Shown piece by piece: positions 1,586 to 56,617 of a DNA stretch of 64,000 nt. The position numbers and the translations under genes were made by a program. Position 1 is the stretch's first letter; each line of letters opens with the position of its first letter. A model generated the notes under the pieces. That model had not been told where the DNA came from. It did not search any database and worked only from the letters and a program-made list of their open reading frames with translations. This DNA comes from Verrucomicrobiota bacterium (GTDB lineage Bacteria > Verrucomicrobiota > Verrucomicrobiia > Limisphaerales > JAEYXS01), in NCBI GenBank assembly GCA_023431185.1, contig JAEYXS010000065.1:77386-141385 (forward strand). The letters run 5' to 3'.

Positions 1586-1589
1586 TAGC

Positions 1590-3097: not shown

Positions 3098-3102
3098 AGT
3101 TT

Positions 3103-4707: not shown

Positions 4708-4784
4708 GCGCGAGTAGCTCAACTGGATAGAGTGACGGTCTCCGAAGCCGTAGGTTGTGGGTTCAAATCCCGCCTCGCGCACCA
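4708..4784 (+). tRNA. tRNA-Arg (anticodon CCG)
   Basis: Manual cloverleaf fold. Acceptor GCGCGAG/CTCGCGC, D-arm GCTC..GAGT, anticodon stem ACGGT/GCCGT with loop CT-CCG-AA, T-arm GTGGG-TTCAAAT-CCCGC, discriminator A and an encoded CCA. Confidence 0.9.
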
Positions 4785-13787: not shown

Positions 13788-14124
13788 AGAAGGCTTACTT
13801 CCGCGCACTGAGGAACCAGCCTGGTCATTGGGCAGACACTGAATCGGAACTCCCAATCGTAGGGAGGGAGGAAACGGCACTGCACTCGGGGAAACAATTT
13901 AGAATTAAGAAAGGAGAATGAAGTAACAGTGGATTCGATTAAAGGCTTTGGTGGTTCCAAGTTCCTGCTGGTGGTTGGCGTTAGCGTAAAGGTGAAGTTT
14001 GGGACGGCGTGGAAGCCATCCTTACCTGGTTTAGTTTTAGCCTGCTAACGTCGGTTGCGGTTGTGAGGGATAACATCTCATTGAATTTGTCCATTTGGTC
14101 ACCATAATCGGGTGCATTCAATCT

Positions 14125-15870: not shown

Positions 15871-15881
15871 TCAATCCGAAT

Positions 15882-17036: not shown

Positions 17037-17049
17037 AGGGCGAGGTAAG

Positions 17050-42343: not shown

Positions 42344-43140
42344 CTGGAGAACTGAAAGGCGGTTAGGAGTTGAAAATAGAACCGTCTAAGCATGAAAGGA
42401 AACAGCACTGATATAATTGCCTCACACTGGAAGTGAAAATATTTTCGGGTGCAAGTTTTTGAGAGGGAGGGGATTAGGGATTTTGGTTTTTTGGATGTGG
42501 AAAATTTATTGTGGTGACGGGTTTTTGTGATAGTATTTAGGGGCTGGCAGCTCGCTGCTGGTAAAGGACGGGGTAAAGCCCAGTTTCAGGTTTCTGGTCT
42601 CAAGTTTCAGGTCAGGAACACGAAGAAGAGGGCGGTAATCCCAGGTCACTAAGCATGATGATGCATGGCATTGTTGTGTCCTGCGTTGGCGGGGAGGTGA
42701 CGAGTCCTTATGGGGCCATCATCAGGGATGTGCGAGGTGAGAGGGGCGAAGTGCGACTCTCGCTTCGGAGTCTCTGTTGAAGTTCGGTAGGGCAGTTGCG
42801 GAAAGAGTTTGGGCGGCGGAGCACCTCCGCCCTACCGGACTAGAATAGGATCTGTGGGTGTGTCGGGTGTTTGGGTCGGGGCTCGTAAGCTGGAGGGGGA
42901 ACGGGACGTCGGGCGGCGTAGGATGTTATGACCGACCGGGAAATCTCTAGGTCGAAGTTCGACTGCCGTACCCACTGCGGAACCAGCCGGGCTTTGGACA
43001 AATGCGAGGTGTGAAGTTCGAGGTGCGAAGTATGCACTGCGAGGTTCGGCGTCGAATTGACTTCTTGAATGAGGAGGGTTGGACGGGATGCACGCACAGG
43101 GGTCGGGTGGTTTCATTGCTCTTTGAAATAAGTTCTCTGT

Positions 43141-43175
43141 TTAACCGCAGATGGACGCAGATAAACGCAGATGAG
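43141..43175 (+). repeat. second clear copy of the TTAACC + 3x10-bp element
   Basis: TTAACC then CGCAGATGGA / CGCAGATAAA / CGCAGATGAG, starting at 43146, 43156 and 43166. Confidence 0.75.
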
Positions 43176-43209
43176 GGAGAGGGGGTGTTAAAGCTCCTCC
43201 TCTCCCTGG

Positions 43210-43241
43210 CCCTCTCCTCCATTTATCAATGGAGGAGAGGG
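43210..43241. repeat. perfect 13-bp-stem hairpin
   Basis: CCCTCTCCTCCAT-TTATCA-ATGGAGGAGAGGG, inside the ORF-free region. Confidence 0.6.
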
Positions 43242-43576
43242 GAATGGAACTGTGCGTATGTGAGTCTTAGGTGGTTAATGGAGTGGCTGGCGAGGGTTTG
43301 GTTTCGGGAGGTGTGGACTAGTGGCTAGAGTGCCGCAGGACAGGATGCTATCGCGGAGTGTCACATCAAACAAACTGGATGGTAGGCTGCTTCGAGGGAA
43401 CGTGAAATTGGAGAATGGGATTGGGAGCTTGGTTCTGGGGAGTTCGAAGGTGAAGTTGCTGGTTGGCCGGGGTCACTCCGTGCGTTACAAGCGCGGAGTG
43501 ATACCGGCAGGCCGGGGGAATTGAGTGATGTTGATTGTGCCTTGCACTTTGACTGGTCGCATTTACCTTTGGCGTC

Positions 43577-43849
43577 ATGGCGAATGCGCCCAAGAAAAAA
43601 AGCAAAGCCAAAGCCATGATGCTTGGCGTGGGTCTGGATACGGATGGTCACAAGCGGGTGACCAAAGGGGATAACTTTACCCTCGTGGGCGGCAGCAAGG
43701 ATACCCACGAGGAGATGACCGAGAAGGCCATCAAGATCAATGAGAAGCTCAAAGCCCGTGGCAAGACGTTGGAATCCGTGAGCCATGAGGAGTTTGATGA
43801 CATCGCGCACGCGGTCGGGTTAAGGCGGAACAACAATCAGGCGAACTGA
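43577..43849 (+). CDS. hypothetical small protein (90 aa, Lys-rich N-terminus)
   Basis: ATG start and a clean ORF with coding-like composition (MANAPKKKSKAKAMMLGVGLDTDGHKRVTKGDNFTLVGGSKDTHEEMTEKA...). No family recognised by eye. Confidence 0.5.
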   Translation: MANAPKKKSKAKAMMLGVGLDTDGHKRVTKGDNFTLVGGSKDTHEEMTEKAIKINEKLKARGKTLESVSHEEFDDIAHAVGLRRNNNQAN

Positions 43850-43877
43850 ACGGGCGAGTGATTTTGCCGCCAGTTTC

Positions 43878-43906
43878 TTGACGTGTGGCCGGTGCATGGT
43901 TAGTTT
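43878..43906 (+). promoter_or_regulatory. candidate sigma70-type promoter of the nuo operon
   Basis: TTGACG (43878-43883), a 17-nt spacer, then TAGTTT (43901-43906), about 30 nt upstream of the nuoA ATG. Confidence 0.35.
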
Positions 43907-43937
43907 GCACCCAAGATTCCACTCGAGGCGTAAACTG

Positions 43938-44318
43938 ATGTTGGCGGTCGCATACCATCCTTATCTGTTTCTGGCCGTTTTACTTGGGATAGCCGTCATC
44001 TTCCCGCTCATACCGCTGGCGCTCGCGAAGCTCTGGTCCAAGAAGTTTTCCCCGCCCAAGCCCGGTCCGGATAAGAATGCGACTTACGAATGCGGCTTGG
44101 AGTCGAAAGGTGATGCCTGGGTGCAGTTCAAGTCGGAGTATTATCTCTACGGCATCCTGTTCCTGATCTTTGATGTGGAGACGGTTTTCCTGCTGCCCTT
44201 CGCGGTGGCGTTCACGAATCTGTCGGCTGGTGCTTTCATCGCCATCATGTTTTTCCTGCTCTTGCTGGCGGAAGGTTTGCTGTGGGCGTGGAAGAAGGGT
44301 GTCTTGAACTGGAAGTAA
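43938..44318 (+). CDS. nuoA: complex I subunit A
   Basis: The ATG at 43938 gives a 126-aa protein with 3 TM helices, YECG and FDVE motifs. The TTG-extended N-terminus in the track looks non-coding. Confidence 0.85.
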   Translation: MLAVAYHPYLFLAVLLGIAVIFPLIPLALAKLWSKKFSPPKPGPDKNATYECGLESKGDAWVQFKSEYYLYGILFLIFDVETVFLLPFAVAFTNLSAGAFIAIMFFLLLLAEGLLWAWKKGVLNWK

Positions 44319-44321
44319 CTC

Positions 44322-44936
44322 ATGGATGAAGGGCTGCGTAACGAGTTGAGCAAACAGGGCGTGTTCACCACGACCTTGAGCGATATCTATAACTGGGGTC
44401 GTCGCAGTTCGGTGTGGCCGCTCCAGTTCGGGCTCGCGTGTTGCGCCATCGAGATGATCGCGGCGTCCATGGCGCGATATGACCTGGCGCGTTTCGGTGC
44501 GGAAGTGTTCCGGCCCTCACCACGGCAGGCGGATCTCATGATCGTGGCCGGCACGGTGACCAAGAAGATGGCACCGCAAGTGGTGCGGCTCTACAATCAG
44601 ATGCCGGAGCCGAAGTATGTCATCGCGATGGGTGCGTGTGCGATCTCTGGCGGACCGTTCAAGCAAGGTTACAATGTGCTCAAGGGCATTGACCGTTATA
44701 TCCCGGTGGATGTGCACATCCCAGGCTGTCCACCGCGACCAGAAGCGCTCTTGCATGCGTTCATGACCTTGCAACGCAAGATCGATGAGCAGGCGATGAG
44801 CGGTAAGGCGCGGCCCCGTCATCTCGATCCGGATGCACCCAGTGAATTTCCCGTCCCACAATTCGGTGAGCATGACTTGGTGCCGCCGAAGAATGAGAAG
44901 GTGTGGGAACCGGCAACGGTGATTCGGAATGGCTGA
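44322..44936 (+). CDS. nuoB: complex I subunit B (N2 cluster subunit)
   Basis: [16 protein letters not shown] and GCPPRPEAL cysteine motifs. Confidence 0.92.
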
Positions 44937-44942
44937 AGAACC

Positions 44943-45566
44943 ATGAAAGATATCGAGTCCATCAGGCAACAGATCGTCGCGAGCGTGCCCGGCGCGCTGG
45001 TGACGCTGGTGCCGAACGACTCGCCGGCGAACCAGCCTTCGTTGCTGGTTGATGCATCTCATGCCATCGCTGTGGCGACTTATTTGCGGGATGGTTCGGA
45101 GTTGCACTTTGATTATTGCTCCAACGCCACTGGCGTGGATTGGCTTGATACGGAGCAGAAGGTGAAGATCAAACAGATGGTGGATGGCGTGGAGAAAGAG
45201 GTCGAGCAGGTCACCAAGAAGCCGGGCTATCTGGAGGCGGTTTATCATCTCTACTCCATCGAGAAGCGGCATGGCCCCTTGGTGATAAGGCTGCGCACGG
45301 TCAATCGTACGGATCAGACGGAGTTGCCTTCGCTCACGCCGGTCTGGCGCAGTTGTGAATTTCAGGAGCGGGAGATCTACGATCTTTACGGCATCATTTT
45401 CACCGGGCATCCAGATCTGCGACGCATCCTCATGTGGGATGGCTTCAAGGATTTTCCGATGCGCAAGGATTACGTTGAGCCGGATGACTACGAGTATGAG
45501 CCGACGCCGCACGATGAGGTGCTGGAGAAGGCGAAGGCGCACTATCAAACGGGGGTGAAACCATGA
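44943..45566 (+). CDS. nuoC: complex I subunit C
   Basis: 207 aa. [27 protein letters not shown] signature. Confidence 0.9.
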
Positions 45567-46741
45567 ACACGGAGATCATGGCCGAGCCGCCGAAGAATTA
45601 TGAAGTGCATCCGAAGGAGCCGGGGCACTTCGATGGAGATGTGGGCGATCTGCTCGAGGTCTCCATGGGGCCGCATCACCCGTCCACGCATGGTGTCTTC
45701 CGCATGGATGTGGTGCTGGATGGCGAGCGCGTGGTGAAGCTCAAGCCGGTCTTCGGTTACCTGCATCGGAATCATGAGAAGATCGGGGAAGGGGCCAGCT
45801 ACCTCGCCTCGATGCCTTACACGGACCGGCTCGATTACTTTTGCTCGATGACGAACAACTGGGCTTACGCCTTGTCCGTCGAGAAGCTGGCCGGTTTGCA
45901 AGTGCCAGAGCGGGCGGAATATATCCGTGTCATCACGGCCGAATTGACGCGCCTGGTGAATCACACCTGTCTCATGGGGTTCCTCGTGCAGGACATGGGT
46001 GCACTGGGGACGCCGCTCATGTATGCCTTCCGTGAGCGGGAGAAGATCCTGGATCTGTTCGAATCACTGAGTGGTGCGCGCATGATGTGCAATTACATGC
46101 GCTTCGGTGGCTGCCGTTGCGATTTGCCTGCTGGCTGGCTGGAGCAAGCGCAGCAAGTGGTGGATGAGTATCCGCGTTTTCTGGATGAATACGAACATCT
46201 GCTCATGGGTAATGAAATCCTCATGGCGCGCAGCCAGAACGTGGGTGTGTTACCGAAGGCGTTGGCCATCAGTGCAGGCATCACTGGCCCGATGTTGCGT
46301 GCGAGCGGAGTGAACTATGACATCCGCAAAGTGGATAAATACGGTATCTATGACCGTTTCACGTTCCGCGTGCCATTGGGTGAGCATGGCGATGTCTATG
46401 ACCGCTTGATGGTGCGTTTGCTAGAGATGCGTGAATCGGTCGGCATTTTGCAACAAGCGTTGAAGGCGATCCCCGAGGGGCCGATCGTGGATCCGAAGGC
46501 CAAATTGCGCGGGTTCAAGCCCAAGGCGGGCGAGGCGTATGGCCGCATCGAAGCGCCAAAAGGGGAGTTGGGTTTCTATCTCATCAGTGATGGCACGCCG
46601 AATCCGTATCGTTATCGGGTGCGTCCACCGAGCTTCGTGAATTTGACGGTGCTGGAAGACATGTGTCTCGGTCATTCCGTGGCGGATGTGGTGATCATCT
46701 TGGGCAGTGTGGATATTGTGCTTGGCGAGGTGGATCGATAA
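45563..46741 (+). CDS. nuoD: complex I subunit D
   Basis: 392 aa. [19 protein letters not shown], and a C-terminal DIVLGEVDR. Confidence 0.92.
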
Positions 46742-46744
46742 GTT

Positions 46745-47269
46745 ATGCACTGGAGACTGAAACAGACCAATTTGCTCGATGAACCAGCAGACGTCCTCGT
46801 CTGTTCGGCGAACGTCAGTCTTAATCTGTCTGGCGGGGTAGGGGCGGAATTGCTGGGGCGTTATGGTGACCGGATGCAGAAAAGTTTGCATGCGATCTTG
46901 CACCAACGCAGCCCACGGGCGGCGAAGTGCGGTGAAGTGTTCGCTTATTCAGGTAAGGAGATGCCTTATAAAGCGGTGCTTCATGCCATGGCGATCGACG
47001 GCTGGTATCAGAGCAGTCCGCAGATCATCACCGACATCACCCGCAAAGCGCTGAAGATGGCGGCGGAATTTGAGGCAAGGAAAGTGGCTTTCACGGTCTT
47101 GGCCACAGGTTTTGGCAACCTTTCCCTGGCTGATTTTGCGCAAGGTGTGCGACCGATCTTGAATGATGAATTTCCTCCTGTTGAGGAAGTGATTTTTGGC
47201 TTGCTGCTGGATTTTCAAGTGGCGGAACTGGCTAAACATTTTCCAGAATTAGAAACTTGTAGCGTTTAA
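46745..47269 (+). CDS. macro domain (ADP-ribose-binding/processing) protein embedded in the nuo operon
   Basis: 174 aa. N-x6-GGV motif (NVSLNLSGGVG) and G-x-[YF]-G motif (TGFG). Lies 3 nt after the nuoD stop and 7 nt before the nuoI ATG. Confidence 0.7.
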   Translation: MHWRLKQTNLLDEPADVLVCSANVSLNLSGGVGAELLGRYGDRMQKSLHAILHQRSPRAAKCGEVFAYSGKEMPYKAVLHAMAIDGWYQSSPQIITDITRKALKMAAEFEARKVAFTVLATGFGNLSLADFAQGVRPILNDEFPPVEEVIFGLLLDFQVAELAKHFPELETCSV

Positions 47270-47276
47270 AGAACAA

Positions 47277-47912
47277 ATGCTCGGCGAAGGCATACTGAAA
47301 GGCATGGTGGAAACGGCGAGAAATTTCGCCGGGAGCTACGTGTCCAAAGATCGCCTGACGACGGTCGAGTATCCCGAGCAACGCATCGCCCCGAAAGAGA
47401 ATGCGCGGCAGTTCCCGTTTCTGGTGTTCGACGGTAATGATCCACAAGCGGGCTTGCGTTGTGTGGCGTGCCAGATCTGCGAGAAGGAGTGCCCGCCCAA
47501 GTGCATCTACATCGAGAAGAGCAAAGACAAGAAGCCGGACTTCGTGGGCAAGCCGCAGATTTATCCGGCTACGTTTGATATCGATATCTCCGTCTGCATG
47601 AGCTGCCAGATCTGCGTGGAGGTCTGTCCGTTTGATGCCATCAAGATGGACCAGGCGTATGAACTCTCGAATGATGACCGGTTCGGAGGGTTGCTCTTGC
47701 GCAAGATCGATTTGGCGAAACCAAACGACTATTTTCGCAAGCTGCATCCGAAGGATGCAGCCGAGATCGATGCAGCCAGGGTGACGGCCAAGGAACAGGC
47801 CGAAGCCAAGGCGAAGGCAGATGCGGAGGCGAAGGCCAAAGCAGCGGCGGAAGCAAAAGCGAAAGCGGCAGCACCACCAGTGCCACCAGCGGCTCCGCCC
47901 ACGGGCGCATAA
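47277..47912 (+). CDS. nuoI: complex I subunit I (2x[4Fe-4S]) with an Ala/Lys/Glu- and Pro-rich C-terminal tail
   Basis: CVACQICEKECP and CMSCQICVEVCP ferredoxin motifs. Tail sequence AKEQAEAKAKADAEAKAKAAAEAKAKAAAPPVPPAAPPTGA. Confidence 0.9.
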   Translation: MLGEGILKGMVETARNFAGSYVSKDRLTTVEYPEQRIAPKENARQFPFLVFDGNDPQAGLRCVACQICEKECPPKCIYIEKSKDKKPDFVGKPQIYPATFDIDISVCMSCQICVEVCPFDAIKMDQAYELSNDDRFGGLLLRKIDLAKPNDYFRKLHPKDAAEIDAARVTAKEQAEAKAKADAEAKAKAAAEAKAKAAAPPVPPAAPPTGA

Positions 47913-47924
47913 GGGATCACGGGC

Positions 47925-49130
47925 ATGGATATTGGCGAACTGATAAACCTCATCTTAAAAGACCCCGACCAGGTCTTCGTGCTGACGAAGGCCTTCGTCG
48001 TCGGCAAGTTCCCGGAAGGTGCGCAGCCCCTCGTCTCCATTTTGCTCTCCATCATGCCCATTCTCAGTGTGTTTCCGGGCTTGTTCGCGCTGACGACCAT
48101 CTTGGAACGGAAAGGGCTCGGACGCATTCAGAACCGTCTCGGGCCAAACCGTGTCGGCCCGTTTGGCATCCTGCAACCCGTCGCGGATGGCATCAAGGCG
48201 CTCATCAAGGAGGATGTGGTGCCGCGCGCGGCGGATAAGGTGGTGCATTTCTTGGCCCCAGTGGTGATCGTGATTCCAGTCATCCTTTCCTACGCGGTCT
48301 TGCCGGTAGGCCGAAACATGGTGGCTATCGATCTGGATGCCGGGCTGCTCTTCTTCTTCGCCGTTGGTGCTTCAACGGAACTCGCGGTGTTCATGGCGGG
48401 ATGGTCGAGCCGGAACAAATACTCGCTGCTCGGGGCCATGCGTGCCATCGGGCAGATGATCAGCTATGAGATTCCGCTCATCCTTTCGGCCATCGTCGTG
48501 GTCATGGCTGTCGGATCGCTTTCCACGACTTCCATCGTGGATGCGCAGGCGGGCTATTACGGATGGTTGCCGAATTGGTATGTGTTCACGCCTTGGGGTT
48601 TCGCCGGTTTTCTGCTCTTCGTGACGGCGGCGACGGCAGAATCAAATCGCTCGCCGTTTGATATCCCGGAAGGGGAATCGGAGATCATCGCGGGTTATTT
48701 CGTGGAGTATTCAGGTTTCAAGTTCGCGCTCTTTTTCCTGGGGGAATACCTCGGTCTGTTCGCCGTGAGCGGACTGGCCATCACGCTGTTCCTTGGCGGC
48801 TGGCATGCGCCGTTGCCGTTCTTGGAGTGGATACCCTCGTGGTGCTGGTTCTTTGCCAAGCTGATGTGCTTCATCGTGCTGTTCATCTGGGTACGCGGTA
48901 CGTTGCCGCGCTTGCGGCAGGATCAACTCATGAACTTTGCTTGGAAATTCATGCTGCCGCTCACCCTTATCAATATCTTCGTGGCGGGTATCTGGCGCTT
49001 TTTGGAGCCGGGCATGATGCGCTGGCTCGTTTGCGCAGGTATCTTGGCGGCGGCTTACTTGGTGTTGGGCCGGGGTTTGACGGCTGCCCGGAATGTGGCA
49101 CCCCGGGAATATCGTTACGCGGAAAATTGA
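47925..49130 (+). CDS. nuoH: complex I subunit H
   Basis: ERKGLGRIQNRLGPNRVGPFGILQPVADGIKA signature, 8 or more TM helices, and a ~50-aa N-terminal extension. Confidence 0.9.
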   Translation: MDIGELINLILKDPDQVFVLTKAFVVGKFPEGAQPLVSILLSIMPILSVFPGLFALTTILERKGLGRIQNRLGPNRVGPFGILQPVADGIKALIKEDVVPRAADKVVHFLAPVVIVIPVILSYAVLPVGRNMVAIDLDAGLLFFFAVGASTELAVFMAGWSSRNKYSLLGAMRAIGQMISYEIPLILSAIVVVMAVGSLSTTSIVDAQAGYYGWLPNWYVFTPWGFAGFLLFVTAATAESNRSPFDIPEGESEIIAGYFVEYSGFKFALFFLGEYLGLFAVSGLAITLFLGGWHAPLPFLEWIPSWCWFFAKLMCFIVLFIWVRGTLPRLRQDQLMNFAWKFMLPLTLINIFVAGIWRFLEPGMMRWLVCAGILAAAYLVLGRGLTAARNVAPREYRYAEN

Positions 49131-49136
49131 ACTGAG

Positions 49137-49688
49137 ATGGAACTGGCCTTTGTAATCATAGCGACGATCACGCTCGGGGGAGCGGTGGCGGTGATGTCTT
49201 TGCGTCACTTGGTGCATTGCGCGCTGGCGCTGGTGGTGACGTTCGCAGGTTTGGGGGCGATGTATCTGTTGCTCAGTGCGGAGTTCGTCGCCTTTGTGCA
49301 ATTGCTCGTCTATGTGGGCGCAGTGGCGATCCTGATTGTGTTCGCCTTGTTACTGACGCGGAGTGCAGCAGTGGAGCCACATCAAAGTCTGTTGCAAAGC
49401 AAAGTGGCCGGTATCGGTGTGGCGCTGCTGGCATTCGGCACCATCGTGAGCGCACTGGTTTCCAGTGGCCGCTTTGACAAGACCCAGCTTGCGGCACCAG
49501 CGCTGACGGTGCGACGCATCGGTGAAGAACTGATGACGCGTTACGTGCTGCCCTTGGAGGCCATCGGTCTGTTGCTCACGGCAGCAACGATAGGAGCGGT
49601 GGTGATCGCCATGGAAGAGCGCAAAAGAGCGGACCGGTCGAAGTCCGGAGAGGAGACGGCGCACAACCTGGAGGACAAGCACGGATGA
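49137..49688 (+). CDS. nuoJ: complex I subunit J
   Basis: 183 aa and 5 TM helices. Typical FVAFVQLLVYVGAVAILIVF segment. Confidence 0.85.
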   Translation: MELAFVIIATITLGGAVAVMSLRHLVHCALALVVTFAGLGAMYLLLSAEFVAFVQLLVYVGAVAILIVFALLLTRSAAVEPHQSLLQSKVAGIGVALLAFGTIVSALVSSGRFDKTQLAAPALTVRRIGEELMTRYVLPLEAIGLLLTAATIGAVVIAMEERKRADRSKSGEETAHNLEDKHG

Positions 49689-49990
49689 TCCCGCTGCATT
49701 ACTACCTCATCGTGGCCGCGATGCTCTTTTGCATAGGGCTTGCAGGCGCGTTGATCCGACGCAATGCCATCATGGTGCTGGTGGGCATCGAGTTGATGTT
49801 GAACGCAGCGAATCTGAACTTCATCGCGTTCTGGCGTTACTCGCCGAATCCGGATGGTAATCAGGGTGTGATGTTCGCGATCTTCTCCATCGCCATCGCG
49901 GCAGCGGAGGCGGCGGTGGGGTTGGCACTGATCATCGCGCTTTATCGGCACTATCGCAGCACGGATGTGGCGAAGGAGGATAAGAAGTGA
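49685..49990 (+). CDS. nuoK: complex I subunit K
   Basis: 101 aa, 3 TM helices, GIELMLNAANLNF motif. 4-nt overlaps with both neighbouring genes. Confidence 0.9.
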   Translation: MIPLHYYLIVAAMLFCIGLAGALIRRNAIMVLVGIELMLNAANLNFIAFWRYSPNPDGNQGVMFAIFSIAIAAAEAAVGLALIIALYRHYRSTDVAKEDKK

Positions 49991-52026
49991 TGGATAATGC
50001 CGCCTCTATGCTTTGGTTAATCCCCACGCTGCCGCTGCTGGCAGCGGTGGTGACGACCTTTTTGGGCAAGGAGCAACGTAGCTTGGCATCGGGAGTAGCA
50101 ATTGGCGGCATGGTGGGGGCTTTCTTGCTGTCCGTGAAAGCATTCATGGCGGTATTGGGGCAGCATGGTGTGCCAGTGGTGCATAATTTTCTCTGGCTGG
50201 AGTTCGGTGAAACGCAGATGCAGCTTGGCTGGGTATTAGACCCGTTGAGCGCGATGATGCTGGTGATGGTCACTTTCGTCGGCACGCTGATCTTCATCTT
50301 CAGCATCGGTTACATGGCGCATGATGAGCGGTTCACGCGGTTCTTCTGTTTCCTTTCGTTGTTCGCGGCGGCGATGCTGGGCCTGGTCATCGCGAACAAT
50401 CTGTTGCTGCTCTTCATGTGCTGGGAGCTGGTGGGGCTCGCGTCTTATCTGCTCATCGGCTTTTGGTATCAGAAACCTTCGGCAGCGGCGGCGGCGAAGA
50501 AGGCGTTCATCACAACGCGCATCGGTGATATCGGATTGTTCCTTGGCTTGCTCTGGCTGTATCGCGAAACGGGAACATTGCTCTGCTATGACAATGGTGC
50601 CGGGTGCCTGGAGCAATCGGCACTGACGAAGTTGGTGGGGCAGATCGCTTTCGGCGGCATGGCGGTGAGCACGGCTATTTCACTGCTGCTCTTCTGCGGG
50701 GCAGTGGGCAAGAGCGGTCAGGTGCCGTTGCATGTGTGGTTGCCGGATGCGATGGAAGGCCCGACACCGGTGAGCGCGCTCATCCATGCTGCGACTATGG
50801 TGGCGGCGGGTGTGTTTTTGATGGCACGCGTGTATCCGCTGCTGGCGATGACACCGGATGGACCGGCGAATGATACTACGGCTTTGCAGGTGATTACTTG
50901 GGTGGGAGCGATCACTGCCGTGTTCGCGGCGTTCATCGCCATGGCGCAGACGGACATCAAACGCATCCTGGCTTACTCTACCGTGTCCCAGCTTGGATTG
51001 ATGTTTGTGGGCTTAGGTGTGGGCGGTGTGGCGGTGGGGATGTTTCATCTCATCACGCACGCATTCTTCAAGGCGCTGCTGTTCCTTGGTTCTGGCTCAG
51101 TGATCCATGGCTGCCATGAGGAACAGGACATCCGCAAGATGGGCGGTTTGCGGAAATTCATGCCGGTGACGTTTTACGCTTATGGGGTTGGTATGATCTC
51201 GCTGGCGGGCGTGATTCCGTTCGCTGGTTTCTGGAGCAAGGACGAGATCATGCACAAGGCGCATCAATGGCCTGCTTCGGAGATTCCGTATTACCTCGTT
51301 TTGGTAGGTGCGTTTCTCACGGCGTTCTACATGACGCGGCAGATGGCGTATGTATTCTTTGGGACGAACAGAGCGGCCTCGGATCATGGGCATCATGAAC
51401 CGCATGAAAGCCCGGCGGTGATGACGGTGCCGCTTATTGTTTTGGCTGCGTGCGCGACCTTTATCGGGTTTCTCGGGACACCAGCGTGGCCTTGGTTCGA
51501 ATCATTTGTGCATGGGCATGAAGCGAAGTTTGATTGGGATAAATTGATCCATGCTTTGCCGACGATGTTGACGTCTATCGTTATTGCTGGTGTGGGTATC
51601 GCCGCAGGATGGGGCTACTACGGACGGAAGGCAATCGATACGAGCAAAGCAGATCCATTGCAGGGCTTGTTGCCGAATGTGTATCCGGCGTTGGAGAAAC
51701 GCTTGCTGGTGGATGAGCTTTATGAAGCGACGTTCATCGCGTGGCAGAAGGCTTGGGCCAATGGGTGTGATTGGTTGGAGAAACAAGTTTGGCAGGGTGT
51801 GATGTGGGTGGTGAGTATCGTATCGCAAGTCTTTGGCTGGGTGAATCGCATCATCGACGAGATCGTGATCAATGGCGGCTTCAATGCGAGCTGTGCCAAG
51901 CTGCAAGAATCGGGTGACAAAGTGGAACTGGCGCACCGGGGCGATATTCAACGGGCATTACGTGGGTTGGGCATCGCACTGACGATTCTGGTGCTCTTAC
52001 TGTCATGGGGGTGCAGTAAATCATGA
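49987..52026 (+). CDS. nuoL: complex I subunit L (long, 679 aa)
   Basis: Antiporter-like core (FMCWELVGLASYLLIGFW, GKSGQVPLHVWLPDAMEGPTPVSALIHAATMV) plus an extended C-terminal region. Confidence 0.9.
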   Translation: MMDNAASMLWLIPTLPLLAAVVTTFLGKEQRSLASGVAIGGMVGAFLLSVKAFMAVLGQHGVPVVHNFLWLEFGETQMQLGWVLDPLSAMMLVMVTFVGTLIFIFSIGYMAHDERFTRFFCFLSLFAAAMLGLVIANNLLLLFMCWELVGLASYLLIGFWYQKPSAAAAAKKAFITTRIGDIGLFLGLLWLYRETGTLLCYDNGAGCLEQSALTKLVGQIAFGGMAVSTAISLLLFCGAVGKSGQVPLHVWLPDAMEGPTPVSALIHAATMVAAGVFLMARVYPLLAMTPDGPANDTTALQVITWVGAITAVFAAFIAMAQTDIKRILAYSTVSQLGLMFVGLGVGGVAVGMFHLITHAFFKALLFLGSGSVIHGCHEEQDIRKMGGLRKFMPVTFYAYGVGMISLAGVIPFAGFWSKDEIMHKAHQWPASEIPYYLVLVGAFLTAFYMTRQMAYVFFGTNRAASDHGHHEPHESPAVMTVPLIVLAACATFIGFLGTPAWPWFESFVHGHEAKFDWDKLIHALPTMLTSIVIAGVGIAAGWGYYGRKAIDTSKADPLQGLLPNVYPALEKRLLVDELYEATFIAWQKAWANGCDWLEKQVWQGVMWVVSIVSQVFGWVNRIIDEIVINGGFNASCAKLQESGDKVELAHRGDIQRALRGLGIALTILVLLLSWGCSKS

Positions 52027-53579
52027 ACGGCTTCTCTCCATTGACTTTGCTGATGTTGCTGCCGTTGCTCGGTGGGTGCGTGCTTTTGGGCCTGGAAAAG
52101 CAGCAGCGGGCATTCGCCCGGCATCTGGCGTTCGGGGTGAGCCTGCTCACGCTGGCGCTGACGTTATTCATCGGCAGCCAGTTTGATTCCACGAGCGGGG
52201 AGTTGCAGATGGTGGAGCGGCATGCCTGGATGCCGTCTCTAAACGTAGAGTACTTCGTAGGCGTGGATGGGTTGAGTTTGGTGCTGCTCCTGCTCACGGC
52301 GTTGCTGGTGCCGATGAGCATGCTGGCGGCATGGAAGCAAGAGGAGCGGACATCGCTTTTCTTTGCCCTCATTCTATTCTTACAGGCGGGATTGTTCGGA
52401 ACATTTACGGCGCTGAATTTTATCCATTGGTTTTTGTTCTGGGAGCTGAGTCTCGTGCCGGCGTTCTTCCTCGTGAAGCTCTGGGGTGGGCCGGAGCGGG
52501 GGAAAGCGGCGATCCAATTCTTCGTCTATACGATGGTCGGCAGTGTGGCACTGTTGCTGGCGTTTCTGGGAATGTATCTGGCGGTGGGGACGTTTGATTT
52601 TATCCGGCTGGCTGAGTTGGCAAAGAGCGGCGAATTGATGGCGCGGATGAGTTTGAATCTGGGCTGGTATGATCTGAGCAAGGAGCAACTGGCATTGGTC
52701 ATCGCCTTCGGCGTGTTTCTCGGACTGGCGGTGAAGGTGCCGCTGATGCCCTTCCATGGCTGGTTGCCCAAGACCTATTCCACGGCGCCGGCCGCAGTGA
52801 CGATGCTGCTCACCGGGGCGATGTCCAAGATGGGTGTGTATGGTTTTCTGCGTATTCTTTTGCCGATTTTCCCCGAGCAAATCCTCGCCGTGCAAAACTG
52901 GCTGCTTTGGCTGGCCATCGCGACGATCGTGATGTCCGCACTGGCGGCCTCAGCGCAGACAGATTTGAAGAAGCTGCTGGCGTATTCTTCCATCAATCAC
53001 TTGGGCTATTGTCTGCTGGGTGTTTTTGCCACCGTGTCCAGTGGGACCGGCAACCAAGGATGGTCGGTGGAGGCATCGGCGGTGCTGGGTGGGACGGTTT
53101 TGCAGATGTTCAATCACGGCATCACGGCGGCTTTGCTATTCTGCTTCGTGAGTTATCTGGAGGAGCGGGGAGCCGGGGAAACGAATCTGGCGCGGTTTGG
53201 CGGATTACGTGCGGCGATGCCGGTGTTCTGCGGTTTGATGGGTGTGGCTACGTTTGCTTCGCTAGGTTTGCCGGGCTTGAGCGGTTTCGTGGGCGAGTTC
53301 CTGATCTTCAAAGGTACATTCGGACTGGTCGCGTGGGCGGCGGTACTAGCGACGCCTGGGTTGCTGATCACCGCCATCTTCCTGCTGCGCATGTATCAGC
53401 AGGTGTTTTATGGGCCGCTGCCAGCAACGCATGCAAAGTGGCAAGACCTCGATTTGCGTGAGCGGTTCACAGTATTGCCCGCATTGCTGCTGGTGCTGAT
53501 CTTGGGTGTGTATCCACAACTGTTGATGGGGCTGATCAATCCAACGGTGACACGTTTGGTAGAAGGGCTGGCGAGGTGA
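52023..53579 (+). CDS. nuoM: complex I subunit M, copy 1
   Basis: 518 aa. NuoM/ND4-type antiporter-like subunit (FFLVKLWGG, VKVPLMPFHGWLPKTYSTAPAAVTMLL). Confidence 0.88.
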   Translation: MNGFSPLTLLMLLPLLGGCVLLGLEKQQRAFARHLAFGVSLLTLALTLFIGSQFDSTSGELQMVERHAWMPSLNVEYFVGVDGLSLVLLLLTALLVPMSMLAAWKQEERTSLFFALILFLQAGLFGTFTALNFIHWFLFWELSLVPAFFLVKLWGGPERGKAAIQFFVYTMVGSVALLLAFLGMYLAVGTFDFIRLAELAKSGELMARMSLNLGWYDLSKEQLALVIAFGVFLGLAVKVPLMPFHGWLPKTYSTAPAAVTMLLTGAMSKMGVYGFLRILLPIFPEQILAVQNWLLWLAIATIVMSALAASAQTDLKKLLAYSSINHLGYCLLGVFATVSSGTGNQGWSVEASAVLGGTVLQMFNHGITAALLFCFVSYLEERGAGETNLARFGGLRAAMPVFCGLMGVATFASLGLPGLSGFVGEFLIFKGTFGLVAWAAVLATPGLLITAIFLLRMYQQVFYGPLPATHAKWQDLDLRERFTVLPALLLVLILGVYPQLLMGLINPTVTRLVEGLAR

Positions 53580-53580
53580 T

Positions 53581-55071
53581 ATGAGCGCGCTGCCTTGGAC
53601 CATCTACGCGACGTTTCTGGGAGCCTTGCTGGTGACTTTATTGCCAGCGGGTAATCTGCGGCACATCCGTTTTGCCGCATTAGGAACTGCGCTGGTGGGG
53701 TTGTTCATCGGATTGTATGCGGCGGCAAATTTCGATGCCGCTGAAGGCTTGGTGACACTGAGCAAGCATAAGTGGATTCCGGCCTTTGGTGCCGAATACC
53801 ATCTGGCGGCGGATGGCATCAGTGTGGTGATGGTGCTGCTGACGGGCATCGCAGCGGTGACGGGTGTGCTGTTCTCCTGGAATGTGACACATCGGTTAAA
53901 GGAGTTTTTCGCGTTCTTTTTGCTGCTCATAGGAGCGGTTTATGGGGTGTTTCTGAGTTTCGACCTGTTCCTGTTTTTCGTGTTCTACGAACTGGCGATC
54001 GTGCCGAAGTATTTCCTCGTGGCGATCTGGGGCGGGCAGAATCGCGAGTATGCGGCGATGAAGCTGGTGCTGTATTCCTTTGTAGGCAGTGCGTTGGTGC
54101 TGGTGGGGATTGTGGCGACGCTGGTGGTATCTGGGGGGCAGACAGCGAGCTTGGAAGCATTGGGGCAGATTCAGTTTACGGCATCATTCCAGCACTGGGT
54201 ATTTCCGCTGATGTTCGTGGGATTCGCCATTTTGGCGGGCTTATGGCCGTTTCACACTTGGGCCCCAACAGGCCACGTGGCGGCACCGACGGCGGCGTCC
54301 ATGCTGCTGGCCGGTGTAATCATGAAGTTAGGCGCGTATGGGGCATTGCGCGCAGGAGTCTGCCTGTTCCCGGAGGGATTGCTTGCTTGGCAAAATGTGC
54401 TGGGGTGGCTGGCGGTGATCGGGATCGTTTATGGCGCTTCCGTGGCTTTGGTGCAGAAGGATTTTAAGTTTGTCATCGGCTACTCGAGCGTGAGTCACAT
54501 GGGATTTGTGATCCTGGGACTGGTGAGCATGAACAGCATCGGACTTTCCGGCGCGATCTTGCAGATGTTCTCGCATGGTATCATCGCGGGGCTGCTGTTC
54601 GGTGTGGTCGGGCGCATGGTATATGAGCGAGCGCATACGAGGGACTTGAATGCGCTGCAGGTGATGAACCTCAGCAAAGCATTGCCCTTCGCGGCCGTGA
54701 CGTTTGTGCTGGCGAGCTTGGCCTCGATGGGCTTGCCGGGCTTTAGCGGGTTCGTGGCGGAATTCTCGGTCTTGATCGGGGCATGGGCTTTGGACCCGAC
54801 GAAGGCAGTGGTTGCTGGTGTGGGAATTGTGATCGGTGTGGCGTTCACGCTACGTGCGTTGCAGACGGCGTTCTTCTCGGATGCAGGGCCGGCTGGTGAC
54901 AAACCTCACGAGGAGATGGAGCCGATCACCGTCCCGGAGCGGGCAGGGGCAGTCATCCTGCTGGCGACGACTTTGCTCGTGGGTTTGTATCCGAAAATAC
55001 TCTTGGATCTCATCCAACCGGCTTTGGCTTCGCCGCTTTTTGAGGCGCTCCGGAAAGGAGGTCTGCAATGA
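53581..55071 (+). CDS. nuoM: complex I subunit M, copy 2
   Basis: 496 aa. Also NuoM/ND4-type (YELAIVPKYFLVAIWGG, PFHTWAPTGHVAAPTAASMLLAGV). Distinct from the NuoN that follows. Confidence 0.85.
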   Translation: MSALPWTIYATFLGALLVTLLPAGNLRHIRFAALGTALVGLFIGLYAAANFDAAEGLVTLSKHKWIPAFGAEYHLAADGISVVMVLLTGIAAVTGVLFSWNVTHRLKEFFAFFLLLIGAVYGVFLSFDLFLFFVFYELAIVPKYFLVAIWGGQNREYAAMKLVLYSFVGSALVLVGIVATLVVSGGQTASLEALGQIQFTASFQHWVFPLMFVGFAILAGLWPFHTWAPTGHVAAPTAASMLLAGVIMKLGAYGALRAGVCLFPEGLLAWQNVLGWLAVIGIVYGASVALVQKDFKFVIGYSSVSHMGFVILGLVSMNSIGLSGAILQMFSHGIIAGLLFGVVGRMVYERAHTRDLNALQVMNLSKALPFAAVTFVLASLASMGLPGFSGFVAEFSVLIGAWALDPTKAVVAGVGIVIGVAFTLRALQTAFFSDAGPAGDKPHEEMEPITVPERAGAVILLATTLLVGLYPKILLDLIQPALASPLFEALRKGGLQ

Positions 55072-56561
55072 TCCCGTTGAATTATGGCCAGCTGGTGATG
55101 GGGTTGATCCCGGAGCTGTTGCTGGTGGCGGCGGCCTTGGCGGTGTTGGGTGTGGACCTGATGGTGCTGCGGGAGGAATCCAAGCGGACACGGTTTGGTT
55201 TCGCTGCCGGTTTCACAGGTTTTGCATCGCTCGCAGCGGTCTTCTGGATCACGACCAGCACGGAACCGATGACGTTGCTCGAAGGCTCCTTCATCGTCAG
55301 TCATCTGACGCAATGGGTGAAGGTCGGCCTTTTGCTGCTGACGGCGCTGACGGTGGCCATGTTCGTGGATGGAGAATTCACGGAGCATATCGGTGAATGT
55401 GTGGCGCTTATTTTGTTCGCTACAGTGGGCATGATGTTGCTGGTGAGTGCGGGCGATCTGCTGCTGCTGTTTGTGGCGTTGGAACTGGTGAGTCTATCGC
55501 TGTATGCGCTGGTGGCTTTCGACAAACGAAGCAAGGAAGGCACGCATGCGGCGCTGCAATACTTCCTCTACGGCGGCATGGCGGCAGCGTTCATGCTCTT
55601 CGGATTCAGTCTGCTCTACGGCTTGACCGGCAGCACGTTGATCGCCGAAGTGGGCAAGGGGGTGGCGGACAAGACGGGTGATCCGGTTCTCCTGGTGGCG
55701 ATGGTCATGGTGATGATGGGGCTGGGTTTCAAGGTGGCTGCAGTGCCGTTTCACCTGTGGGCACCGGCGGTGTATCAAGGGGCACCGGGACCAGCGGCTG
55801 CGTTGGTCGCATCGGGGTCCAAGCTCGCGAGCTTCGTGGTGGTGGCGCGGCTAATGTTCGCAGGATTTGCCGGAGTGGAAGGCGATGCGGCTTGGCGCAG
55901 TTATGTGCAGGGCTGGATGCCGTTGCTGGCGGGCATCGCAGCGTTCTCCATGGTGCTGGGAAATCTGGCGGCACTGGCGCAAAGCAGTCTGCGACGGTTG
56001 CTGGCGTTCTCGGCCGTGGCGCATGCTGGCTATATGCTGCTGGGGATATTGGCGGTGAAGGAAACGGGGTTGCAGGCGGTGTTCTATTACGCCTTCACGT
56101 ATGGTGTGGCGACGATCGGGGCTTTCGGGGTTGCGGTGCTGGTGGAACGGAAACGGGGTGGGGATTCGCTCGTCAATCTTGCGGGTATGGCGAAGCAGTC
56201 GCCGTTAATGGCGGTTTGTTTAATGGTGTTTATTCTGTCACTCGCCGGGATTCCTCCGCTGGCCGGTTTTGTCGGCAAGTTCCATGTGTTTCTCTCGGCG
56301 ACAGCGGTGAAATCGCCTGACCTAGGTCTGCTATGGCTGGTGGCCTTGGCCATCGCGACGAGCGCGATTTCGCTCTATTACTATCTGCAAGTGCTCAAAC
56401 AGGCGTGGGTGGTGAAGGGTGATGAGGCCGCGACTGATCTGAAGCCCGGCGTGGTGACGTTGGTAGTGCTGTGCTTGCTGGCAGTGATTACCATCGTGCT
56501 GGGGTGTGTGCCGGAAGTGATTCTGGGTCCATTGGGAGAGGCGCTTGAGCAAAGTTGGTAG
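55068..56561 (+). CDS. nuoN: complex I subunit N
   Basis: 497 aa. NuoN/ND2-type (LFVALELVSLSLYALVAF, FKVAAVPFHLWAPAVYQGAP). Confidence 0.88.
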   Translation: MIPLNYGQLVMGLIPELLLVAAALAVLGVDLMVLREESKRTRFGFAAGFTGFASLAAVFWITTSTEPMTLLEGSFIVSHLTQWVKVGLLLLTALTVAMFVDGEFTEHIGECVALILFATVGMMLLVSAGDLLLLFVALELVSLSLYALVAFDKRSKEGTHAALQYFLYGGMAAAFMLFGFSLLYGLTGSTLIAEVGKGVADKTGDPVLLVAMVMVMMGLGFKVAAVPFHLWAPAVYQGAPGPAAALVASGSKLASFVVVARLMFAGFAGVEGDAAWRSYVQGWMPLLAGIAAFSMVLGNLAALAQSSLRRLLAFSAVAHAGYMLLGILAVKETGLQAVFYYAFTYGVATIGAFGVAVLVERKRGGDSLVNLAGMAKQSPLMAVCLMVFILSLAGIPPLAGFVGKFHVFLSATAVKSPDLGLLWLVALAIATSAISLYYYLQVLKQAWVVKGDEAATDLKPGVVTLVVLCLLAVITIVLGCVPEVILGPLGEALEQSW

Positions 56562-56572
56562 AAAAGAAAAAC

Positions 56573-56589
56573 GGCAGCCGTAGGCTGCC
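56573..56589. terminator. bidirectional hairpin between nuoN and the convergent gene
   Basis: GGCAGCC-GTA-GGCTGCC, with an A-rich run upstream and a T-containing run downstream. Confidence 0.5.
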
Positions 56590-56617
56590 ATTGAATCTTT
56601 GATTCTAAATCGAGGTC

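What the first reader, a model, noticed from the sequence alone, without database searches (positions are those of the whole stretch)
43938..56561. Complex-I-like operon lacking the NADH module (no nuoEFG) but carrying two nuoM genes and a long nuoL
The gene order read from the sequence is A-B-C-D-(macro)-I-H-J-K-L-M-M-N, mostly with 4-nt overlaps or gaps under 15 nt. No NuoE, NuoF or NuoG homolog is present anywhere in the window, so the electron input is unlikely to be NADH via the canonical N-module. Two consecutive ND4/NuoM-type antiporter-like subunits (518 and 496 aa) precede NuoN. NuoL is 679 aa, compared with roughly 610 aa in E. coli. Complex I variants with a duplicated NuoM and a lengthened NuoL lateral helix ('2M' type, proposed extra proton channel) have been described in a few lineages, and this operon fits that architecture. 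nuoI preceding nuoH is also the reverse of the canonical order.
Basis: partly seen in the sequence, partly recalled or inferred. Interest (0 to 1): 0.6.

Follow-up and report, generated by a model that had tools for sequence, protein, structure and literature searches.

The report
Known-type complex I with four pump subunits
This is a well-preserved example, from an uncultured Verrucomicrobiota bacterium, of an already described complex I variant with an extra NuoM pump subunit, a longer NuoL helix and no NADH-binding module; only a small macro-domain gene inside the operon is unusual.

Summary
Window 43938-56561 (+) encodes nuoA-B-C-D-[macro]-I-H-J-K-L-M1-M2-N, tightly packed. No NuoE/F/G homolog occurs anywhere in the 64 kb.

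- **Pump subunits:** both M copies are true NuoM, not Mrp. They are only 34% identical and belong to two deep NuoM lineages, so this is not a recent duplication.
- **NuoL:** it carries one 29-residue block inside the lateral amphipathic helix (residues 593-621). In 40 of 40 related L-M-M-N operons the helix core is 73-76 residues. In 13 of 20 L-M-N operons it is 44-49.
- **Relatives:** the same A-B-C-D-I-H-J-K-L-M-M-N order without EFG is shared by Acidobacteriaceae, Verrucomicrobiota and Chloroflexus. It is already in the literature (Chloroflexus aurantiacus genome 2011; "2M complex I", Chadwick et al. 2018).
- **Function:** all catalytic and proton-channel residues checked are conserved, except one lysine in M2. 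The electron partner is not encoded here. Ferredoxin, or a NuoEFG module borrowed from a second operon, remain inferences.
- **Macro gene:** it sits in the operon only in close relatives, and its homologs lie elsewhere in other genomes. It is most likely a passenger.

Verdict: a new member of a known kind, of low to moderate interest.

The parts
43938..44318 (+). nuoA (126 aa)
   Evidence: PF00507 at 107 bits. Independent gene call of 126 aa on the source contig.
44322..44936 (+). nuoB (204 aa), carries the N2 cluster
   Evidence: PF01058. NF011394 at 367 bits, above its cut-off of 312. All four Cys ligands equivalent to E. coli C63, C64, C129 and C158 are present.
44943..45566 (+). nuoC (207 aa)
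   Evidence: PF00329 at 123 bits.
45563..46741 (+). nuoD (392 aa), quinone-site subunit
   Evidence: PF00346 at 319 bits. NF004739 at 441 bits, above its cut-off of 360. HPSTHG and PYTDR motifs present, as in E. coli NuoCD.
46745..47269 (+). Macro-domain protein (174 aa) inserted between nuoD and nuoI. Probably a lineage-specific passenger gene.
   Evidence: PF01661 at 51 bits, above its cut-off of 22. N23, G30-G31-V32-G33 and T121-G122-x-G124 are invariant in 35 homologs. It lies in the nuo operon only in relatives at 75% macro identity or more (L083, L084, L088). Homologs at 65% and 55% identity lie in unrelated contexts.
47277..47912 (+). nuoI (211 aa), with two 4Fe-4S motifs and an Ala/Lys/Glu/Pro-rich C-terminal tail
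   Evidence: Fer4_7. TIGR01971 NuoI is the best NCBIfam match at 75 bits, below its 113-bit cut-off. Best PDB matches are NuoI/TYKY subunits. CVACQICEKECP at residue 62 and CMSCQICVEVCP at residue 107.
47925..49130 (+). nuoH (401 aa)
   Evidence: PF00146 at 379 bits.
49137..49688 (+). nuoJ (183 aa)
   Evidence: PF00499 at 110 bits.
49685..49990 (+). nuoK (101 aa)
   Evidence: PF00420. Equivalents of E36 and E72 are present.
49987..52026 (+). nuoL (679 aa), long form
   Evidence: NF005141 at 648 bits, above its cut-off of 556. Equivalents of E144, D178, K229, H334, H338, K399 and D400 are present. AF2 model has pLDDT 77.8. Best fold and sequence matches are NuoL/NdhF chains.
51763..51849 (+). 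29-codon insertion in the NuoL lateral amphipathic helix (residues 593-621)
   Evidence: It is the single largest indel against E. coli NuoL, at E. coli position about 558. It lies within the predicted helix 572-646. Helix-core length is 73-76 in all 40 L-M-M-N operons and 44-49 in 13 of 20 L-M-N operons.
52023..53579 (+). nuoM1 (518 aa), the E. coli-like NuoM lineage
   Evidence: TIGR01972 at 470 bits. Keeps equivalents of E144, K234, K265 and E407. Its orthologs sit in first position in more than 40 loci.
53581..55071 (+). nuoM2 (496 aa), the second NuoM lineage
   Evidence: TIGR01972 at 454 bits. 34% identical to M1. Leu replaces the TM7 Lys (E. coli K234), as in the single NuoM of several canonical operons. 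The Verrucomicrobiota plus Acidobacteriaceae M2 clade has 100% bootstrap support.
55068..56561 (+). nuoN (497 aa)
   Evidence: TIGR01770 at 359 bits, above its cut-off of 333. Equivalents of E133, K217, K247 and K395 are present.
56570..56592 (.). GC-rich 10-bp hairpin between nuoN and the convergent downstream gene. Terminator-like.
   Evidence: Strongest hairpin in the scan of 43300-57000. The number of sites in that scan is not above the shuffled expectation, so this is only suggestive.

Best explanation
The locus encodes a '2M-type' complex I homolog that lacks the NADH-oxidising N-module.

Shown. It has a complete quinone-reducing module (NuoB, C, D, I). Its membrane arm has four antiporter-like subunits (NuoL, NuoM1, NuoM2, NuoN) instead of three, plus NuoA, H, J and K. 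NuoL's lateral amphipathic helix is 25-29 residues longer than in three-pump enzymes. The ligands and charged residues needed for electron transfer to quinone and for proton channels are conserved. The exception is M2, which has Leu in place of the TM7 Lys.

Inferred. At 1.5 A per helical residue the extra segment is about 40 A. That is roughly one subunit width, so the helix can still clamp the longer row of pumps. The fourth pump would add a fifth proton per two electrons, as proposed by Chadwick et al. 2018.

Inferred, electron partner. The partner at NuoI is not encoded in the operon. I consider a low-potential carrier of the ferredoxin type the most likely, either oxidised to reduce menaquinone or reduced by pmf-driven reverse flow. 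The hosts of this clade use menaquinone. NADH to menaquinone yields too little energy for five protons. The closest solved NuoL relative is NdhF1 of the ferredoxin-dependent cyanobacterial NDH-1L.

The macro-domain gene is most likely a passenger that entered the D/I junction in a recent ancestor. I put about 0.9 on the identity as a 2M, EFG-less complex I, and about 0.5 on ferredoxin as the partner.
For: Gene content and order.

Absence of NuoEFG in 64 kb.

Conservation of the same EFG-less I-H-J-K-L-M1-M2-N operon: it occurs in about 48 Acidobacteriaceae and Verrucomicrobiota loci and in Chloroflexus.

Lateral-helix insertion: it lies inside the helix and is strictly linked to the L-M-M-N architecture in 40 of 40 operons.

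M copies: both are NuoM and orthologous across phyla.

Catalytic and channel residues: conserved, apart from the TM7 Lys of M2.

[quoted passage not shown] Chloroflexus aurantiacus Caur_1976-1987 has the same order and is a menaquinone organism (PMC3150298). The 12-gene cluster is transcribed in C. aggregans (PMC8004040) and in Acidobacterium capsulatum (PMC11636273).

Closest structure: the best PDB relative of NuoL is NdhF1 of the ferredoxin-dependent NDH-1L, at 41% identity.
Against: - No ferredoxin, flavodoxin or other input-module gene is linked to the operon in the window or in the relatives inspected.
- Organisms with this operon usually also have a canonical operon whose NuoEFG could be shared.
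- Incorporation of both M subunits, the H+/2e- ratio and the donor have never been measured for this clade, as far as the held literature shows.
- M2 lacks the TM7 lysine. Its channel may work differently, although the single NuoM of several canonical operons shares the substitution.
- Seven L-M-N operons also carry the long helix, so helix length alone does not prove a fourth subunit.
- The rest of the genome was not available.
Confidence: 0.75

Rival explanations
1. The enzyme is NADH-dependent after all. It assembles with NuoE, F and G made from a second, canonical nuo operon elsewhere in the genome, so it is simply a high-stoichiometry NADH:quinone oxidoreductase.
For: Genomes with this operon commonly hold a complete 14-gene operon as well: A. 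capsulatum (PMC11636273), Chloroflexus aurantiacus and C. aggregans. One Opitutales locus (L048) has a second ...L-M-N gene set directly upstream of the 2M operon. Canonical EFG-containing operons exist in other Verrucomicrobiota (L054, L059, L070).
Against: The EFG-less state is conserved across three phyla together with the I-H rearrangement. That pattern argues for an autonomous module. With menaquinone as acceptor, NADH oxidation gives about 47 kJ per 2 e-. This is too little for five protons at a normal pmf (my own calculation from standard potentials). No experimental evidence of module sharing is known to me.
Confidence: 0.3
2. The extra NuoM does not add a pumped proton. It serves another purpose, such as a different ion, stability or regulation, and the stoichiometry stays at four or fewer.
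For: M2 has Leu in place of the TM7 Lys (E. coli K234), which is considered part of the conserved Glu-Lys pair. No stoichiometry measurement exists for any 2M complex in the held literature.
Against: The same Lys-to-Leu state occurs in the only NuoM of canonical 14-gene operons (L050, L054, L059, L070), which must pump. M2 keeps the equivalents of E144, K265, E407 and both His. M1 keeps all of them.
Confidence: 0.15
3. The macro-domain protein is a functional part of the complex. It could be a nucleotide (ADP-ribose or NAD-derived) binding accessory or regulatory subunit that replaces or controls the missing input module.
For: The gene is packed 3 nt after nuoD and 7 nt before nuoI. It is retained in that position in relatives whose macro protein has diverged to 75% identity and whose NuoL is 82-83% identical. 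Its ADP-ribose-binding loops are invariant.
Against: It is absent from all 80 more distant loci with the same operon and from L089 at 65% NuoL identity. Homologs at 55-65% identity are stand-alone genes in unrelated contexts. The same lineage tolerates other insertions: an AAA ATPase between nuoK and nuoL in L088 and a peptidase after nuoD in L093. The protein has no redox cofactor motif.
Confidence: 0.07
4. The duplicated M or the missing EFG is an assembly artefact or a decaying operon.
For: The source is a metagenome assembly.
Against: The same sequence was assembled independently in ENA and Logan contigs. M1 and M2 are only 34% identical. All genes are intact with conserved functional residues. 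The architecture recurs in dozens of genomes.
Confidence: 0.01

Closest known systems
2M-type complex I (Chadwick, Hemp, Fischer and Orphan, ISME J 2018), specifically the Chloroflexus / Acidobacteriaceae / Verrucomicrobiota form nuoABCDIHJKLMMN (e.g. Chloroflexus aurantiacus Caur_1976-1987; the second complex I of Acidobacterium capsulatum)
   Same: Identical gene order including I before H. Two non-identical NuoM genes between L and N. No nuoE, F or G. A 25-29 residue insertion in the NuoL lateral helix. M1 and M2 are orthologous to the first and second copies of those operons.
   Different: A macro-domain gene sits between nuoD and nuoI. It is found only in this organism's close relatives. 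The host is an uncultured Verrucomicrobiota lineage whose NuoL is at most 61% identical to any species representative in GTDB.
Nitrospira 'clade 3' 2M complex I (CI_1 of N. moscoviensis)
   Same: A second NuoM, a lengthened NuoL, and no nuoE or nuoF. It is proposed to couple quinol and ferredoxin (PMC6606698).
   Different: The Nitrospira cluster keeps an enlarged nuoG homolog. This operon has no nuoG at all. The one Nitrospiraceae locus retrieved here (L065) has a single M, which groups with the other single-M sequences in the NJ tree, not within the M1 or M2 clades.
Cyanobacterial/chloroplast NDH-1L (ferredoxin:plastoquinone oxidoreductase)
   Same: An 11-subunit core without NuoEFG. NdhF1 is the closest solved relative of this NuoL (41% identity, TM-score 0.78-0.85).
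   Different: NDH-1L has three antiporter-like subunits and specific Ndh subunits for ferredoxin binding. I did not search for those. The gene order and the host quinone also differ.
Canonical 14-subunit NADH:quinone oxidoreductase (E. coli Nuo, Thermus Nqo)
   Same: All 11 core Q- and P-module subunits are present with conserved catalytic residues.
   Different: No N-module (NuoE, F, G). An extra NuoM. NuoL is 66 residues longer. The I/H order is inverted.

Membership tests
2M-type complex I | Two NuoM-type genes between nuoL and nuoN | tested here: met
   M1 and M2 score 470 and 454 bits on TIGR01972 (cut-off 264). MrpD models score about 160 bits.
2M-type complex I | Insertion of about 26 residues in the NuoL lateral amphipathic helix | tested here: met
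   A 29-residue block against E. coli at residues 593-621. The helix core is 73 residues, against 44-49 in short-helix L-M-N operons. The predicted helix spans 572-646. The 26-aa figure comes from PMC9040806.
2M-type complex I | Otherwise complete complex I core (A, B, C, D, H, I, J, K, L, N) with functional residues | tested here: met
2M-type complex I | Both M subunits assembled into one complex, with five protons per two electrons | not testable with these tools
   This needs purification, structure determination and stoichiometry measurement. It remains a hypothesis in the literature too (PMC6606698).
Canonical 14-subunit NADH:quinone oxidoreductase | NADH-oxidising N-module (NuoE, NuoF, NuoG) encoded with the complex | tested here: not met
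   No tblastn hit better than E = 0.009 in 64 kb with five EFG query sets. The rest of the genome was not available.
Mrp/Mnh antiporter or membrane-bound hydrogenase type complexes | MrpA/MrpD-type subunits, or a NiFe-hydrogenase large subunit in place of NuoD | tested here: not met
   The L, M and N models of complex I score two to four times higher than the Mrp models. NuoD scores 441 bits on the NuoD equivalog and only 22 bits on a hydrogenase model, and it has the quinone-site HPxxHG and PYTDR motifs.
Ferredoxin-dependent NDH-1 (cyanobacterial type) | Ferredoxin-docking accessory subunits (NdhS, NdhV, NdhO) and demonstrated ferredoxin oxidation | not tested
   No reference sequences for these subunits were searched. 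Only the resemblance of NuoL to NdhF1 was seen. The likeness concerns how the enzyme may work, not membership.
MacroD-like macrodomain proteins | Macro fold signature with ADP-ribose-binding loops (N...GGVG and TGxG) | tested here: met
   PF01661 at 51 bits, above its cut-off of 22. Weak PDB matches to PARP14 macro domains, TTHA0132 and YmdB-type deacetylases. The loops are invariant in 35 homologs. Enzymatic activity was not testable.

The most novel reading that the evidence does not exclude
The macro-domain protein, fixed between nuoD and nuoI in this verrucomicrobial lineage, has been recruited as an accessory or regulatory subunit of an N-module-less complex I. It might, for example, sense or remove ADP-ribose-type modifications or bind an NAD-derived ligand at the site where NuoEFG would dock. 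That would be a link between ADP-ribose signalling and respiratory complex I in bacteria that I have not seen described.
Probability: 0.06. Interest if true: 0.6.

Novelty: new member of a known kind. Interest (0 to 1): 0.25.

Why it matters
The locus adds a clean, complete verrucomicrobial example to a complex I variant that was predicted from genomes in 2018. No solved structure of this variant appeared among the closest PDB matches to this NuoL.

The comparative data gathered here sharpen three points. First, the helix-core length is almost invariant at 73 residues in 37 of 40 four-pump operons, which fits a ruler-like role for the lateral helix. Second, the two NuoM genes come from two old NuoM lineages, not from a local duplication. 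Third, the EFG-less, I-before-H operon is shared, and apparently exchanged, between Acidobacteriaceae and Verrucomicrobiota, two dominant soil groups that use menaquinone.

If the enzyme really couples ferredoxin and menaquinone with five protons, it would matter for energy budgets of abundant soil heterotrophs. None of this is new in kind.

Tried and rejected
- **Chadwick et al. 2018.** I tried to read it by DOI and by PMC id, but it is not held. Its content is therefore cited only through papers that quote it. Which of its numbered clades this operon belongs to could not be confirmed.
- **The 90-aa ORF upstream of nuoA (43577-43849) as a possible new subunit.** Rejected. It belongs to a very large, highly conserved verrucomicrobial family (4275 hits) that sits after an HtrA-DnaJ-SDR block. 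It also occurs without any nuo genes next to it (L090).
- **Promoter and terminator scan of the operon.** Nothing above the shuffled expectation, and no internal signal around the macro gene.
- **Literature searches for a solved structure or measured stoichiometry of a four-pump complex I.** They found nothing relevant.
- **Rfam and tRNA scans of the window.** They found only one tRNA-Arg far from the operon.
- **Mrp and hydrogenase-type readings.** Rejected on family scores.
- **Assembly artefact.** Rejected.


Full report
**1. What is in the sequence**

Thirteen tightly packed ORFs lie on the + strand between 43938 and 56561. Pfam and NCBIfam identify them as nuoA, B, C, D, a macro-domain protein, nuoI, H, J, K, L, two nuoM and nuoN. 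Junctions are 4-nt overlaps or gaps of 1-12 nt.

Independent gene calls on the source contig give the same genes. That contig is ENA ERZ28594742, scaffold_21, 358 kb, and it was also assembled by Logan. Those calls put nuoA at 126 aa and nuoL at 678 aa. A GC-rich hairpin at 56570-56592 separates nuoN from a convergent gene. The promoter and terminator scan as a whole is not above chance.

**2. No N-module in the window**

I took NuoE, F and G from E. coli K-12, from a deltaproteobacterial locus and from three verrucomicrobial canonical operons fetched. I searched them by tblastn against all six frames of the window.
- The best hit was E = 0.009 at 30 bits over 71 residues.
- The same queries find one another at 1e-20 to 1e-143.
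- None of NuoC (207 aa), NuoD (392 aa) or NuoI (211 aa) has room for a fused domain.
- Genes called 10 kb upstream are DnaJ, a SAM hydrolase-like protein, an SDR, a LysR regulator, a cyclase, RidA, a glyoxalase and two small ORFs. Downstream are PSCyt/WD40, PSD and DUF1501 proteins.

**3. The two NuoM genes**

Both score far above the NuoM model cut-off: 470 and 454 bits against 264. Both score about 160 bits on MrpD models. They are 34% identical to each other and 33-34% identical to E. coli NuoM.

In about 48 related loci the first copy is clearly orthologous to M1 (410-550 bits against about 200), and the second is orthologous to M2.

A bootstrapped neighbour-joining tree gives these results:

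| Clade | Bootstrap support |
|---|---|
| M2 copies of Verrucomicrobiota plus Acidobacteriaceae | 100% |
| M1 copies, including Chloroflexus | 74-79% |

M1 sits on the side of the tree with E. coli NuoM. M2 sits with the single NuoM of Firmicutes, a deltaproteobacterium and canonical verrucomicrobial operons. Deep nodes are weakly supported. The pair is therefore an old combination of two NuoM lineages, not a recent tandem duplication.

M1 keeps the equivalents of E. coli E144, K234, K265 and E407. M2 keeps E144, K265 and E407 but has Leu at the K234 position. The only NuoM of several canonical 14-gene operons shares that substitution.

**4. NuoL**

Against E. coli NuoL (613 aa), the 66 extra residues are distributed as follows:
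- one block of 29 residues at window positions 593-621, inserted at E. coli position about 558;
- several loop insertions of 3-10 residues.

In E. coli, residues G532, D542, K551, P552, P564 and P572 all lie in the amphipathic helix between TM15 and TM16, and Y590 marks the start of TM16 (PMC3274701). The block therefore lies inside the lateral helix.

An AlphaFold2 model built on 71 homologs has mean pLDDT 77.8 and pTM 0.78. It predicts TM15 at 517-546, a continuous helix at 572-646 and TM16 at 655-673. Confidence falls below 50 around residues 640-660. Its closest solved relatives are NuoL/NdhF chains, best of all cyanobacterial NdhF1 at 41% identity. No 2M enzyme was evident among the closest PDB matches.

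I counted residues between the conserved DELY tyrosine and the glycine before TM16 in 60 operons:

| Operon type | Helix-core length |
|---|---|
| L-M-M-N, all 40 | 73-76 (37 are exactly 73) |
| L-M-N, 13 of 20 | 44-49 |
| L-M-N, other 7 | 73 or more |

The step of 25-26 residues agrees with the 26-aa insertion reported for 2M complexes (PMC9040806). At 1.5 A per residue it corresponds to about 39 A. That this equals about one subunit width is an inference.

**5. Functional residues**

| Subunit | Conserved features |
|---|---|
| NuoB | All four N2 cysteines |
| NuoD | HPSTHG and PYTDR quinone-site motifs |
| NuoI | Two CxxCxxCxxxCP motifs |
| NuoK | Both glutamates |
| NuoL | Equivalents of E144, D178, K229, H334, H338, K399, D400 |
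| NuoN | Equivalents of E133, K217, K247, K395 |

The enzyme looks fully functional.

**6. Relatives and taxonomy**

A scan of one genome per GTDB species found at most 61% identity to this NuoL. The top 48 loci are Acidobacteriaceae (Edaphobacter, Granulicella, Terracidiphilus) and Verrucomicrobiota (Limisphaerales, Chthoniobacterales, Opitutales), interleaved in the trees. This suggests exchange between the two phyla.

Nearly all have A-B-C-D-I-H-J-K-L-M1-M2-N without EFG. In Chthoniobacterales the A-B-C-D-I genes are divergent from H-to-N. Chloroflexus has the same order (L060). Canonical verrucomicrobial operons (L054, L059, L070) have EFG, H before I, one M and a NuoL of about 620 aa.

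The protein database holds at least 8000 NuoL relatives at E below 1e-30. Among the best 120, those named by their source are mostly Verrucomicrobia subdivision 3, Pedosphaera or Limisphaerales. The flanking genes fit this phylum: PSCyt/PSD/DUF1501 proteins and the p90 family. The host is an uncultured Verrucomicrobiota bacterium.

**7. What is already known**
- The Chloroflexus aurantiacus genome paper (2011) lists Caur_1987 to Caur_1976 as nuoA, B, C, D, I, H, J, K, L, M, M, N, with duplicated nuoM and no nuoG, beside a complete 14-gene operon (PMC3150298).
- C. aggregans transcribes both clusters (PMC8004040).
- Acidobacterium capsulatum expresses an 'unusual complex I' with duplicated nuoM (PMC11636273).
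- Chadwick et al. [quoted passage not shown] They proposed a higher proton stoichiometry and, for Nitrospira, reverse electron flow from quinol to ferredoxin (as quoted in PMC6606698).
- The Nitrospira form differs in keeping an enlarged nuoG.

This locus is therefore a new member of a described kind.

**8. Mechanism and electron partner**

That the complex is a quinone-reducing, proton-translocating enzyme with four pump subunits follows from sections 1-5. The donor is not shown. Two options remain.

(a) A ferredoxin-type carrier docking at NuoI, as in NDH-1L and Fpo-like enzymes.

(b) NuoEFG supplied by a second operon.

I favour (a) at roughly even odds, for two reasons. The EFG-less state is conserved across phyla. 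The energetics also point that way. The following figures are my own calculation from standard potentials and are not a tool result.
- The hosts use menaquinone. For Chloroflexus this is supported by a reference title in PMC3150298, seen; for the other hosts it is my own knowledge.
- NADH to menaquinone gives about 47 kJ per 2 e-.
- Five protons at about 17 kJ each need about 85 kJ.
- Ferredoxin to menaquinone gives about 65-80 kJ.
- In reverse, five protons would comfortably drive menaquinol-to-ferredoxin electron flow.

**9. The macro gene**

The 174-aa protein is a MacroD-like macrodomain (weak PDB matches). Its ADP-ribose-binding loops are invariant among 35 homologs.

It lies between nuoD and nuoI in relatives whose macro protein is 75-89% identical and whose NuoL is 82-83% identical (L083, L084, L088). 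It is absent from the operon in L089 (NuoL 65% identical) and in all 80 species-level loci. Homologs at 65% and 55% identity lie in unrelated neighbourhoods.

The same lineage shows other insertions: an AAA ATPase gene between nuoK and nuoL in L088, and a peptidase gene directly after nuoD in L093. The simplest reading is a passenger gene at a permissive junction. A recruited accessory role cannot be excluded but has no support.

**10. Verdict**

The finding is a new member of a known kind, and only the macro insertion is lineage-specific.

Noticed in passing
window 43577-43849 (+): A 90-aa hydrophilic, Lys-rich ORF lies just upstream of nuoA. It has no Pfam match but 4275 database homologs at 72-94% identity, mostly of about 89-91 aa. 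All those named by their source are Verrucomicrobia. It follows an HtrA-DnaJ-SDR block. It is next to nuoA in several genomes (L083, L088, L089, L093) and not in another (L090). It is a highly conserved small protein of unknown function.
   Followed up: partly
window 53581-55071 (NuoM2), aligned column of E. coli NuoM K234: M2 has Leu where the conserved TM7 lysine of antiporter-like subunits should be. The same replacement is found in the single NuoM of canonical operons from a deltaproteobacterium, Firmicutes and Verrucomicrobiota. Some of these have an extra Lys next to the TM8 lysine (LKK). This suggests two NuoM classes with different charge layouts.
   Followed up: partly
L049, L052, L056, L063, L064, L073, L074 (NuoL C-termini): Seven operons that appear to have only one NuoM between L and N still carry the long (73 residues or more) lateral-helix core. 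L056 has 96 residues. Either a second M is encoded elsewhere or was missed, or helix length and subunit number are not strictly coupled.
   Followed up: no
L088 8656-10011; L093 7265-8273: In close relatives the nuo operon is interrupted by other genes. L088 has a 451-aa AAA ATPase between nuoK and nuoL. L093 has a peptidase S9 gene directly after nuoD. The D/I junction seems permissive to insertion or splitting.
   Followed up: partly
L048 (Opitutales MAG JAJDZZ010000007.1): Two nuo gene sets lie in tandem. The end of one (...L-M-N) sits directly upstream of a complete A-B-C-D-I-H-J-K-L-M1-M2-N operon.
   Followed up: no
window 47769-47909 (NuoI residues about 165-211): NuoI ends in a low-complexity Ala/Lys/Glu-rich tail followed by a Pro/Ala-rich stretch. 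E. coli NuoI lacks this. NuoI length varies from 165 to more than 270 aa among relatives.
   Followed up: no
window 3-4515 (+), with tRNA-Arg(CCG) at 4708-4784: Two Pup-ligase family genes (473 and 368 bits) flank a weak proteasome-subunit-like gene (20.8 bits, below cut-off). This looks like a pupylation-like system in a verrucomicrobial genome.
   Followed up: partly
window 14095-18033 (+): A sulfite-oxidase-like molybdopterin oxidoreductase (15882-17036, twin-arginine-like signal) lies between two secreted proteins that share a similar N-terminal region. The upstream one matched esterase and SMP-30/gluconolactonase domains in Pfam. The downstream one (17050-18033) was not scanned.
   Followed up: no
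window 42344-43576: About 1.2 kb upstream of the 90-aa ORF has no convincing gene. The only ORFs there have odd composition, and there is no Rfam or tRNA hit.
   Followed up: no
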